This document shows positions 27,057 to 29,374 of a stretch of DNA of 64,000 bases, piece by piece. The position numbers and the translations under genes were made by a program. The notes beneath the pieces were generated by a model. It made no database searches. It was not told the DNA's origin and was given only the letters and a program-made list of their open reading frames with translations. The first letter of the stretch is position 1, and each line of letters opens with the position of its first letter. Source of the stretch: Escherichia coli (lineage in GTDB: Bacteria; Pseudomonadota; Gammaproteobacteria; Enterobacterales; Enterobacteriaceae). The stretch lies in NCBI RefSeq assembly GCF_050920415.1, contig NZ_CP169309.1. The stretch is one strand, 5' to 3'.

Positions 27057-27102
27057 GAGTAAAAATGACTCGCTACACACAGCTGGCGAGTCATTTTTAC
27101 TC
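27057..27102. promoter_or_regulatory. ZraR enhancer binding sites (inverted pair)
   Basis: gagtaaaaatgactcgc (27057-27073) and its reverse complement gcgagtcatttttactc (27086-27102), between divergent zraP and zraSR. Confidence 0.7.
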
Positions 27103-27616: not shown

Positions 27617-28318
27617 TCAGAACGTTTTCTCGTTGGGTTGCCAGCGACAGAAATCAGAGTTTGCCACTAACAGTAATTGCGAACCTTCGGGCGCTTCCAG
27701 CCATGCCACGCTGACATCAACAGAAGAGCGGCTCTGGCGGCGCTCGATATGCGCTATCGCCTGCGAATCTAAATCAGGTTTAATGGTTTGCCCTTCGCAG
27801 GTGGTCACGGTCTGTTCCATCGCATGCCAGCGCCCCTGGCGCAGCACGACTCTCCCCTGACGTAAGGCATCGCTAATCTGGCGGATCTGATCAGCACGAT
27901 AACGGTATAAATCGATTTGGTCGTTAGAAAGCTGCTGCTTTTCCCCATCGGATTCACGTTGCATAAAGCTCAGATCGCCGCGATCGTCAAAACGCGCGCG
28001 AATGTTCACCGGCGGTTTGCTGTAAACATTGATATTGATGAGCGTGAGGTTATCGCCCTGCCAGCGATACTCTCGCGTCGTGGTATCGCCACTGCGCCAC
28101 GGGCTAAACACAGCAAGCAGATGCACATTATCGCCACTGTCTTTTCGCCAGATACGTACCGCGCCCTGATCTTCAGCAAATCCACTGGCGGTAAAGGGAG
28201 GAAGTGAAGAGTTGTGGCTACAGGCAGTGAGAAACAGAGCGCCCGCCAGCATCAATGATCGACGCCAGAAAGACAAAAGGGGTGAAACCACCCCTTCGTT
28301 AAAACTGTTCACTGCCAC
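27617..28318 (-). CDS. yjaH: Conserved lipoprotein YjaH (DUF1481)
   Basis: 233-aa ORF with lipoprotein signal (LFLTACSHN); conserved position next to hupA. Confidence 0.8.
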   Translation of the reverse strand: MAVNSFNEGVVSPLLSFWRRSLMLAGALFLTACSHNSSLPPFTASGFAEDQGAVRIWRKDSGDNVHLLAVFSPWRSGDTTTREYRWQGDNLTLININVYSKPPVNIRARFDDRGDLSFMQRESDGEKQQLSNDQIDLYRYRADQIRQISDALRQGRVVLRQGRWHAMEQTVTTCEGQTIKPDLDSQAIAHIERRQSRSSVDVSVAWLEAPEGSQLLLVANSDFCRWQPNEKTF

Positions 28319-28324
28319 GCAATC

Positions 28325-28597
28325 TTACTTAACTGCGTCTTTCAGTGCCTTGCCAGAAACAAATGCCGGCACGTTAGCTGCGGCAATTTTGATTTCTTTA
28401 CCGGTCTGCGGGTTGCGGCCAGTACGCTCAGCGCGGTGGTTCACTTTGAAGGTACCGAAACCAACCAGTTGTACAGCATCGCCTTCTTTCAGAGACTCAG
28501 TAATTGCAGCCAGAGTGGACTCCAGAGCAGCTTTAGCCTGGGTTTTGGACAGTTCTGCTTTCTCTGCAATTACATCAATCAGTTGAGTCTTGTTCAT
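28325..28597 (-). CDS. hupA: DNA-binding protein HU-alpha
   Basis: 90-aa [55 protein letters not shown]... Confidence 0.97.
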
Positions 28598-28783
28598 AAG
28601 TTATCCTTACAATGTGTTTATCGCTTGCTAAGCATCGAGTGCGACGGAAATGCCAGAATAGCACTCTCCTGCATACACGCACCGATAGCCACTTTTTTTC
28701 GCCCCCCAAATGTAGACCAGACGGGGGGCGAAAGGGAAGACTCCAGGTATGACAAATCAGGCGTTAAATCACGTTTTCTGGTC

Positions 28784-29374
28784 TTATTGCTGAAAAATTA
28801 TACCAATATTGCTCTCGCCCGCCTCACGCAGGTCTGCCCTAAGGCCTTTTATCAGCTCGATATCGCGTTCTTCGCACTCAGCTAAAAGTCGGAATATTTC
28901 CCACTGAATGTCCCACTCTTGCTCTACAGCTGGGTTTTCTTTGAGCTCTTCATCGCTCATTTCACGGCCAGCCTGAGTCATTTCCAGCATCGCCACGGTC
29001 GTGATGGAGGTCTTACTCACTTCTACCGCGTGTTCGAGCGTTTCGCCACTTAAACGCGAATGGACCAGTTCACTTAACGCCACGCAAGCATCGATTGCCG
29101 GATAAACGCCGTACAGATCGAAATCGTCGGCTGAAGGAATCGCTTCTTCAAATTTCTCCAGTTGGCTGTCGAAATTTACTTTTGCGTCTTTGACGGTCAG
29201 CGTTTCCCAGATGAGATCGAGAATACGGCGGTAAATTTGCCCATCACCAAAACCAGTTTGCTGACAGAATACGGCGTAATTAGGGTACATACGTTCGCAT
29301 AAGCAGGCCATAAAAGTGACGTGCTGCCAGCTTTCCAGGCGCTCCAGACGCAGATGAATTGGGTTTTGTAACAT
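28784..29374 (-). CDS. yjaG: Conserved protein YjaG (DUF416)
   Basis: 196-aa ORF; conserved neighbour of hupA and nfi. Confidence 0.85.
   Translation of the reverse strand: MLQNPIHLRLERLESWQHVTFMACLCERMYPNYAVFCQQTGFGDGQIYRRILDLIWETLTVKDAKVNFDSQLEKFEEAIPSADDFDLYGVYPAIDACVALSELVHSRLSGETLEHAVEVSKTSITTVAMLEMTQAGREMSDEELKENPAVEQEWDIQWEIFRLLAECEERDIELIKGLRADLREAGESNIGIIFQQ

What the first reader, a model, noticed from the sequence alone, without database searches (positions are those of the whole stretch)
28698..28732. Ten-bp GC-rich inverted repeat upstream of hupA that does not fit a terminator
ttcgcccccc-N15-ggggggcgaa forms a perfect 10-bp stem about 100 bp upstream of the hupA start and about 50 bp downstream of yjaG. 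The flanking T-run is on the wrong side for an intrinsic terminator in either orientation (T-run 5' of the hairpin on plus, A-run 3' on minus), so it is more likely a structured RNA element or protein-binding site in the hupA promoter/leader region.
Basis: seen in the sequence. Interest (0 to 1): 0.2.

Follow-up and report, generated by a model that had tools for sequence, protein, structure and literature searches.

The report
Inverted repeat is hupA's core promoter
The GC-rich inverted repeat is real, but it lies on the already mapped promoter of the E. coli HU-alpha gene (hupA): its loop holds the -10 box and its downstream arm holds the transcription start, so it is ordinary and known rather than a new RNA element or terminator.

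Summary
A perfect 11-bp inverted repeat (28697-28707 / 28723-28733, 15-nt loop) lies 50 nt after yjaG and 99 nt before the hupA ATG. The T/A runs are on the wrong side for an intrinsic terminator.

The repeat coincides with the hupA sigma-70 core promoter. The published E. coli start site is 105 nt upstream of the ATG. Capped full-length RNA sequencing gives MG1655 4200175 to 4200605. A Salmonella 5'-UTR oligo begins at the same point. All three place +1 at window 28702/28703, inside the G-run arm.

On the minus strand this gives:
- -35 TTCCCT (TTCACA in most other genera)
- an 18-bp spacer that holds the C-run arm
- -10 TACATT in the "loop"
- the discriminator TGGGGG, then +1 G

hupA mRNA therefore carries only 6-7 nt of one arm and cannot form the hairpin.

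Across about 100 Enterobacterales loci the loop is the most conserved part (14/15 positions invariant). The arms change independently, with no covariation above shuffled controls. Only E. coli's variant, 1 of 37 distinct variants, has the perfect 11-bp repeat. Term-seq lists show no 3' end there.

Verdict: a known promoter, with palindromy most likely incidental to a C-rich spacer and a G-rich discriminator. Interest is low.

The parts
28723..28733 (-). Upstream arm of the repeat (TTTCGCCCCCC on the minus strand), at promoter positions -31 to -21. It lies in the spacer just downstream of the -35 hexamer.
   Evidence: The C6 run is 96% conserved, but the outer TTTCG varies without compensation.
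28708..28722 (-). 'Loop' of the repeat (GTCTGGTCTACATTT), at promoter positions -20 to -6.
   Evidence: 14 of 15 positions are invariant in 72 Enterobacteriaceae loci. The TCTACATT core is kept as far out as Xenorhabdus, Plesiomonas and an AT-rich 2.4-Mb genome.
28697..28707 (-). Downstream arm of the repeat (GGGGGGCGAAA), at promoter positions -5 to +6. It comprises the G-rich discriminator, the transcription start and the first transcribed bases.
28733..28738 (-). -35 hexamer TTCCCT (3 of 6 matches to TTGACA), 18 bp upstream of the -10 hexamer. The orthologous hexamer is TTCACA (5 of 6) in Kluyvera, Pluralibacter, Dickeya, Serratia, Erwinia, Pantoea, Xenorhabdus and Photorhabdus.
   Evidence: Position inferred from the mapped start site; ortholog alignments.
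28709..28714 (-). -10 hexamer TACATT, at -12 to -7 relative to +1 = 28702, with A at -11 and T at -7.
   Evidence: Sequence combined with the start site. Invariant in all loci.
28703..28708 (-). [quoted passage not shown]
   Evidence: It varies among genera (GGAGGG, GGGAGG, GGAAGG, GGTAGG, GTGGGG) while the C-run stays unchanged.
28702..28703 (-). hupA transcription start: a G at MG1655 4200176 (-105 from the ATG) or 4200175.
   Evidence: Mendoza-Vargas 2009 Table 1 agrees with Kohno 1990 and Claret 1996; numbering checked against galE P1. SMRT-Cappable-seq gives 4200175-4200605 covering b4000 only, in both listings. Salmonella 5'-UTR T7 oligo GGG+CGAAAAAAGTGGCTATCGG. K-12 is identical to the window here.
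28598..28702 (-). hupA 5' UTR, 105 nt. It is a known target of the RaiZ sRNA and of ProQ near the ribosome-binding site.
   Evidence: 87 of 105 positions are invariant in Enterobacteriaceae.
28325..28597 (-). hupA coding sequence (HU-alpha, 90 aa).
28784..29374 (-). yjaG coding sequence (DUF416, 196 aa), the upstream gene.
28276..28297 (-). hupA intrinsic terminator. The mapped 3' end is MG1655 4200605.

Best explanation
The inverted repeat is the hupA sigma-70 core promoter seen from an unusual angle. On the minus strand the order is: -35 TTCCCT, an 18-bp spacer whose first part is the C-run arm, -10 TACATT in the middle of the 'loop', the discriminator TGGGGG, and +1 G, the last two lying in the G-run arm. 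RNA polymerase holoenzyme binds this stretch and melts the DNA from the -10 hexamer through the G-run. It then starts at the last or second-last G and produces a monocistronic hupA mRNA that ends at the terminator after hupA. These steps are shown. Two further steps are inferred. First, the G-rich discriminator combined with a weak -35 makes the promoter of the supercoiling- and growth-phase-sensitive type, which fits FIS activation and exponential-phase hupA mRNA. Second, the complementarity of the C-rich spacer block and the G-rich discriminator is incidental: two separately constrained homopolymer blocks, not a selected hairpin. The perfect 11-bp version is specific to E. coli and its closest relatives.
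For: Start site. The published and re-mapped start is at -105, using a numbering convention checked on galE P1. The capped full-length transcript runs 4200175-4200605 and covers only b4000, in both listings of that dataset. The Salmonella hupA 5'-UTR template begins GGG/CGAAAAAAGTGG. The E. coli hupA-5' RNA used in vitro is 110 nt including the AUG. K-12 is identical to the window here.

Promoter activity. A fragment spanning intergenic positions 11-184 drives lacZ.

Promoter anatomy. TACATT falls exactly at -12 to -7, with A-11 and T-7. The orthologous -35 hexamer is TTCACA in most other genera.

Conservation pattern. The loop is 14/15 invariant and the -10 hexamer 6/6 invariant, while the outer upstream arm is variable. 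Pairwise identity is 0.92 for the repeat region against 0.61 for yjaG third codon positions.

No selection for pairing. Paired cells are 81.0% against 80.8% in shuffles, and 78.7% against 77.9% when Xenorhabdus and Serratia are added. Wobble compatibility is the same on both strands, 78.7% against 79.5%. Only 1 of 37 distinct variants has the perfect 11-bp repeat and 4 of 37 a perfect 8-bp core. Hairpin MFE ranges from -24.4 kcal/mol (E. coli, the extreme) to about -5, with a median of -14.3.

Regulatory context. FIS activates hupA, and hupA mRNA accumulates almost only in exponential phase.
Against: The C6 run sits in a promoter spacer, where sequence is normally free, yet it is 96% conserved in Enterobacteriaceae. 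The core-promoter consensus does not explain this. The upstream half of the loop (GTCTGGTC, -20 to -13) is also invariant without matching an extended -10 motif. Some complementarity persists in most Enterobacterales. Xenorhabdus carries a double change (C to T in the upstream arm, G to A in the downstream arm) that restores a pair in 4 variants, and the covariation score there is borderline (14 of 500 shuffles reach it). The tool's consensus promoter scan does not call this promoter, because the -35 hexamer has only 3 of 6 matches. I could not read Kohno 1990 or Claret 1996 directly.
Confidence: 0.85

Rival explanations
1. The hairpin is an atypical terminator or 3'-end-stabilising structure for yjaG. 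It would form in transcripts that read out of yjaG and either stop RNA polymerase or block 3' exonucleases.
For: The full hairpin would be present only in yjaG read-through RNA, where it is strong. No consensus terminator lies between yjaG and hupA. Pair 12-42 alternates C-G and U-G, and Xenorhabdus shows one compensated pair.
Against: There is no U-tract; A7 follows the stem. The loop is 15 nt. In the Adams et al. Term-seq lists (as far as the held text goes) there is no 3' end between MG1655 4199900 and 4200199; the nearest are at 4200251/253, 4200389 and 4200605. The loop is more conserved than the stem. C.A mismatches occur in the stem centre in about a third of variants. Substitutions fit the antisense strand as well as the sense strand. 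The hairpin is weak in many genera that keep the same gene order.
Confidence: 0.06
2. The repeat is a palindromic operator for a dimeric transcription factor that regulates hupA, for example RstA, whose loss lowers hupA promoter activity.
For: The repeat overlaps the core promoter. The intergenic fragment lost activity in a rstA mutant. The loop contains TACATTTGG, which resembles the first half of the RstA box TACATnTnGTTACA; I recalled that box from memory and did not test it. The invariant GTCTGGTC block and the C-run are not explained by promoter consensus.
Against: The arms are homopolymer runs 26 bp apart centre to centre, an unusual geometry for a dimer. The two arms change independently among species. 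The second half of the RstA box is absent. The RstA paper shows no binding data.
Confidence: 0.05
3. The repeat acts as a DNA structure. A cruciform, or a hairpin in the melted strand, would extrude at high negative supercoiling. That would sequester the -10 hexamer or attract HU, which prefers distorted DNA, giving supercoiling-sensing or autoregulation of hupA.
For: The single-strand DNA hairpin is predicted at -14 kcal/mol, z = -5.4. hupA is reported to be autoregulated (title of Kohno 1990, cited). HU's preference for cruciform DNA is established knowledge.
Against: A 15-nt loop makes cruciform extrusion unfavourable; by established knowledge, extruding repeats have short spacers. The perfect repeat is confined to E. 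coli and near relatives, there is no covariation, and only 1 of 37 variants is perfect. No direct data exist.
Confidence: 0.03

Closest known systems
E. coli hupA promoter (hupAp; Kohno et al. 1990, Claret & Rouviere-Yaniv 1996, as cited in PMC2760140)
   Same: It is the same locus. The single mapped start at -105 falls in the G-run arm, and the -10 and -35 hexamers lie at the expected distances. The region is identical in K-12.
   Different: Nothing differs in substance. The palindromic arrangement of spacer and discriminator is not discussed in any paper I could read, and I could not read the two original papers.
Supercoiling- and stringent-type sigma-70 promoters with G/C-rich discriminators (rrnB P1, tyrT, fis P)
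   Same: They share a G/C-rich discriminator, a suboptimal -35 hexamer, FIS activation and exponential-phase expression.
   Different: The spacer is 18 bp rather than the short 16 bp typical of that class. A G lies two bases downstream of the -10 hexamer, which by established knowledge (Haugen et al. 2006) stabilises rather than destabilises open complexes. A ppGpp/DksA response of hupA was not found in the literature searched.
Rho-independent (intrinsic) terminators
   Same: Both have a G/C-rich perfect stem just downstream of a stop codon.
   Different: There is no 3' U-tract on either strand, the loop is 15 nt, no 3' end is mapped, and the loop is more conserved than the stem.
Cis-regulatory RNA hairpins in 5' leaders
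   Same: It lies upstream of a highly expressed, post-transcriptionally regulated gene whose leader binds ProQ and RaiZ.
   Different: The start site lies inside the downstream arm, so the hairpin is not in the leader. There is no Rfam match and no covariation.

Membership tests
Sigma-70 promoter (hupAp) | Experimentally mapped 5' end of a primary transcript at the site | tested here: met
   Start at -105 from the ATG in two independent mappings. Capped full-length reads give 4200175-4200605. The Salmonella 5'-UTR oligo starts at the same bases. Coordinates were transferred through identical K-12 sequence.
Sigma-70 promoter (hupAp) | -10 hexamer resembling TATAAT about 7 nt upstream of +1, with A at position 2 and T at position 6 | tested here: met
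   TACATT at -12 to -7 (28714-28709), 4 of 6 matches including A-11 and T-7. Invariant in all orthologs.
Sigma-70 promoter (hupAp) | -35 hexamer resembling TTGACA, 16-18 bp upstream of the -10 hexamer | tested here: inconclusive
   E. coli has TTCCCT (3 of 6) with an 18-bp spacer, which is below the scan threshold. Orthologs have TTCACA (5 of 6) at the same position.
Sigma-70 promoter (hupAp) | The fragment drives reporter expression | tested here: met
   From the literature: intergenic positions 11-184 fused to lacZ are active.
Intrinsic terminator | G/C-rich stem with a short loop (3-8 nt) | tested here: not met
   The stem is G/C-rich but the loop is 15 nt. The site is not called by the scan.
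Intrinsic terminator | U-tract immediately 3' of the stem on the transcribed strand | tested here: not met
   The minus strand has AAAAAAAGTGG after the stem. The plus strand has AGGGAAG after it, with the T-run on the 5' side.
Intrinsic terminator | RNA 3' ends map just downstream of the stem | tested here: not met
   No 3' end lies between 4199900 and 4200199 in the held Term-seq tables. Caveat: these are thresholded lists and yjaG may be weakly expressed.
Structured cis-regulatory RNA of the hupA leader | Both arms lie within the transcript | tested here: not met
   +1 lies inside the downstream arm.
Structured cis-regulatory RNA of the hupA leader | Base pairs maintained by compensatory change; match to a curated family | tested here: not met
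   Paired cells equal the shuffled control, there is no strand preference, and there is no Rfam hit.
Palindromic transcription-factor operator | Both half-sites conserved together, with symmetric constraint | tested here: not met
   The G-run varies (GGAGGG and others) while the C-run stays constant. The outer upstream arm varies while CGAAA stays constant.
Palindromic transcription-factor operator | Demonstrated binding of a regulator | not testable with these tools
   Only an indirect RstA effect on promoter activity is reported.
Cruciform-forming inverted repeat | Extrusion under physiological supercoiling, which favours short spacers | not testable with these tools
   A 15-nt spacer argues against extrusion by established knowledge. 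The DNA hairpin is predicted at -14 kcal/mol.

The most novel reading that the evidence does not exclude
The complementarity between the C-rich spacer block and the G-rich discriminator may be functional rather than incidental. It could act as a DNA hairpin or cruciform that senses supercoiling or is recognised by HU, giving structural autoregulation of hupA. Alternatively it could act as an RNA hairpin in yjaG read-through transcripts that insulates yjaG from hupA. The unexplained conservation of the C-run and of GTCTGGTC in a promoter spacer, together with the compensated pair in Xenorhabdus, leave a small opening for this reading.
Probability: 0.07. Interest if true: 0.45.

Novelty: already known. 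Interest (0 to 1): 0.1.

Why it matters
It matters little beyond correct annotation. The repeat should be labelled as the hupA core promoter (-31 to +6), not as a terminator, riboswitch-like leader element or operator. The case is a useful caution: a perfect G/C-rich palindrome can arise where a G-rich discriminator happens to face a C-rich spacer. In such cases start-site data and the conservation pattern (loop more conserved than stem, no covariation) settle the question. If the minority reading were true, it would link the expression of a major nucleoid protein to a DNA structure within its own promoter.

Tried and rejected
- Rfam scan of 28200-29000 at E <= 10 gave only a meaningless miRNA hit.
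- The consensus promoter and terminator scan found nothing at the repeat.
- Literature searches for yjaG+hupA and for 'hupA promoter'+'transcription start' returned nothing.
- Start-site supplements of Ettwiller 2016 and Kim 2012 held no hupA entry in the stored text.
- Thomason 2015 and Ju 2019 are not held, and the Dar & Sorek 2018 and Stein 2020 supplements are not held.
- I first considered TATTCT (28655-28660) as an extended -10 hexamer. I rejected it because it is TTTTCT in most species and conflicts with the mapped start.
- I considered an RNA-level reading from G.U-compatible changes. I rejected it because C.A changes, which are wobble on the opposite strand, are equally frequent.
- The 8-bp repeat between the loop (TCTGGTCT) and the yjaG stop region (AGACCAGA) is not conserved, and I treated it as chance.
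- A search for ppGpp or discriminator data on hupA gave nothing relevant.

Full report
**Locus.** The window is E. coli; its yjaG-hupA spacer is 100% identical to O157:H7. Around the finding the genes run on the minus strand: hemE, nfi, yjaG (29374-28784), hupA (28597-28325) and yjaH. This matches the MG1655 annotation. Window position w corresponds to MG1655 coordinate 4200281 + (28597 - w).

**Observation.** The repeat is real and one base pair longer than reported. The arms are TTTCGCCCCCC at 28697-28707 and GGGGGGCGAAA at 28723-28733, perfectly complementary and 15 nt apart.
- Read on the coding strand of yjaG and hupA, the sequence is cccTTTCGCCCCCCgtctggtctacatttGGGGGGCGAAAaaaagtgg.
- It begins 50 nt after the yjaG stop codon and ends 99 nt before the hupA ATG.
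The terminator scan does not call it.
- Perfect repeats of this size are rare by chance: a mean of 1.6 hits of at least 10 bp in Markov simulations, against 24 hits (about 12 sites) in the window, most of them obvious terminators.
- The predicted hairpin is strong as RNA and as DNA.

**What it is.** The decisive fact is where hupA transcription starts.
- Mendoza-Vargas et al. 2009 list hupA p1 at -105 from the start codon. Their own mapping agrees with Kohno 1990 and Claret 1996.
- The same table gives galE P1 as -26, so the number is the leader length.
- SMRT-Cappable-seq, which captures 5'-triphosphate full-length RNAs, lists a transcript from 4200175 to 4200605 covering only b4000, in both listings.
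- The Vogel laboratory's template oligo for the Salmonella hupA 5' UTR is a T7 promoter ending in GGG followed by CGAAAAAAGTGGCTATCGG.
- The E. coli hupA-5' RNA of Stein et al. is 110 nt including the AUG.
- K-12 is identical to the window from position 35 of the spacer onward.

All of this places +1 at window 28702 or 28703, the last or second-last G of the G-run. The repeat therefore spans promoter positions -31 to +6. The resulting map on the minus strand is:

| Element | Sequence | Window coordinates | Promoter position |
|---|---|---|---|
| -35 hexamer | TTCCCT | 28738-28733 | -36 to -31 |
| Spacer (18 bp), starting with the C-run arm | | 28732-28715 | -30 to -13 |
| -10 hexamer | TACATT | 28714-28709 | -12 to -7 |
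| Discriminator | TGGGGG | 28708-28703 | -6 to -1 |
| Start | G | 28702 | +1 |

A fragment covering spacer positions 11-184 drives lacZ. hupA mRNA contains only GCGAAA of the repeat, so the hairpin cannot be part of the hupA leader.

**Comparative evidence.** I collected 80 Enterobacteriaceae loci through YjaG. I then added Dickeya, Erwinia, Pantoea, Serratia, Xenorhabdus, Photorhabdus, Plesiomonas and an AT-rich 2.4-Mb genome.
- The yjaG-hupA spacer is 186 bp in nearly all Enterobacteriaceae.
- From the C-run to the ATG it is almost invariant. Pairwise identity is 0.92 for the repeat region and 0.97 for the leader, against 0.61 for yjaG third codon positions.
- Within the repeat the 'loop' is the most conserved part: 14 of 15 positions are invariant and the -10 hexamer is 6 of 6. 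The outer bases of the upstream arm vary freely. This is the opposite of what an RNA hairpin shows and is what a -10 region shows.
- In most other genera the -35 hexamer reads TTCACA at the same place, which supports the promoter map.
- TCTACATT survives even where the G/C blocks are lost, in Plesiomonas and the AT-rich genome.

**Is the pairing selected?** I found no evidence that it is.
- On 44 distinct variants, 81.0% of cells form a standard pair, against 80.8% when partners are shuffled. The central pair is broken in 15 variants, where the G-run reads GGAGGG and the C-run is unchanged.
- Adding Xenorhabdus and Serratia gives 78.7% against 77.9%. There is one clade-specific double change, C-G to U-A in four Xenorhabdus variants, and a borderline covariation score (14 of 500 shuffles reach it). 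The tool's own documentation says tree-related sequences reach such values without any structure.
- Mismatches that would be wobble pairs on the sense RNA (26 cells) are matched by those that would be wobble pairs on the antisense RNA (29 cells). The pattern is simply one of transitions.
- Only 1 of 37 distinct variants has the perfect 11-bp repeat and 4 of 37 a perfect 8-bp core.
- Predicted hairpin energy ranges from -24.4 kcal/mol to about -5, with E. coli at the extreme and a median of -14.3.
- Within E. coli the perfect version is fixed: 5357 of 5388 genomes are identical over 55 nt.

**Terminator question.** In the Adams et al. 2021 tables held here, the 3' ends in this neighbourhood are at 4200251/4200253 (inside the hupA leader), 4200389 and 4200605 (the hupA terminator). 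None lies between 4199900 and 4200199 on either strand. These are thresholded lists, so weak yjaG ends could be missed. Even so, they give no support to a terminator. No Rfam family matches.

**Mechanism.**
- Shown: RNA polymerase starts hupA transcription inside the downstream arm and produces a monocistronic mRNA that ends at 4200605.
- Inferred from established promoter biology: the G-rich discriminator and weak -35 hexamer put hupAp among the promoters whose opening depends on negative supercoiling and growth state. This fits FIS activation and exponential-phase accumulation of hupA mRNA.
- There are caveats. The spacer is 18 bp, and a G two bases after the -10 hexamer is expected to stabilise open complexes (Haugen et al. 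2006, from memory). I therefore do not claim stringent control.
- The palindromy is most simply a by-product of a C-rich spacer block facing a G-rich discriminator.
- Unexplained: why the C-run and GTCTGGTC (-20 to -13) are so conserved in a spacer. An unmapped regulator site, or a constraint on spacer composition, is possible.

**Rivals.** Three alternatives remain at low probability, for the reasons given in their entries: a yjaG 3' hairpin, a palindromic operator (RstA lowers promoter activity when deleted, but no binding is shown), and a cruciform or HU-sensing structure.

**Verdict.** The feature is the already known hupA promoter, so novelty is 'already known' and interest is low.

Noticed in passing
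window 27057-27102: A perfect 17-bp inverted repeat (GAGTAAAAATGACTCGC / GCGAGTCATTTTTACTC, 12-nt spacer) lies just upstream of zraP. It is the longest such repeat in the window. From memory, it probably corresponds to the ZraR (HydG) enhancer site of the zraP-zraSR intergenic region.
   Followed up: no
window 28598-28702 (-): The 105-nt hupA leader is almost invariant across Enterobacteriaceae (87 of 105 positions; pairwise identity 0.97, against 0.61 at yjaG third codon positions). It stays recognisable in Erwinia, Serratia, Xenorhabdus and Photorhabdus. The known RaiZ/ProQ target near the ribosome-binding site explains only its 3' part.
   Followed up: partly
window 28625-28627 (-), MG1655 4200251/4200253: Term-seq 3' ends lie inside the hupA leader, 28-30 nt upstream of the ATG, in two of the listed conditions (Adams et al. 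2021). They could reflect a processing product or premature termination.
   Followed up: no
window 28637-28667 (-); L082 about 1915-2045: In the leader, GAGAGTGC and GCACTC can pair around a segment that is the only variable part of the leader (TATTCTGGCATTTCCGTC). In Dickeya this segment carries an insertion of about 125 bp. The insertion contains GAGTAAGTGAATGGGGTGAGCG, which closely resembles the ERIC2 primer sequence (recalled from memory), so it is probably an ERIC/IRU element.
   Followed up: partly
window 28764-28777 (-), about -75 to -62 from the hupA start: The block AAAACGTGA(T/C)TTAA just after the yjaG stop codon is conserved from E. coli to most Xenorhabdus and Photorhabdus. It contains a CRP-like half-site (CGTGA) centred near -63.5 and is a candidate for the published CRP or FIS control of hupA.
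   Followed up: no
window 28733-28738 (-): The E. coli -35 hexamer (TTCCCT) is degenerate compared with TTCACA in most other Enterobacterales. The E. coli lineage has therefore weakened its -35 hexamer while acquiring the perfect repeat.
   Followed up: partly
L090, L093-L096 (Xenorhabdus), 901 = hupA ATG: In Xenorhabdus the spacer block reads GCCCTC. In four variants the discriminator reads GAGGGC or GGAGGGC, which restores complementarity (C-G to T-A). Other Xenorhabdus variants keep GGGGGG, giving T.G. This is the only compensated change seen.
   Followed up: yes
L037; protein P0104: A contig labelled Chryseobacterium sp. 18061 carries an Enterobacter-like yjaG-hupA locus. A YjaG protein is also attributed to Vagococcus sp. 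WN89Y. Both are probably contamination or mislabelling in public assemblies.
   Followed up: no
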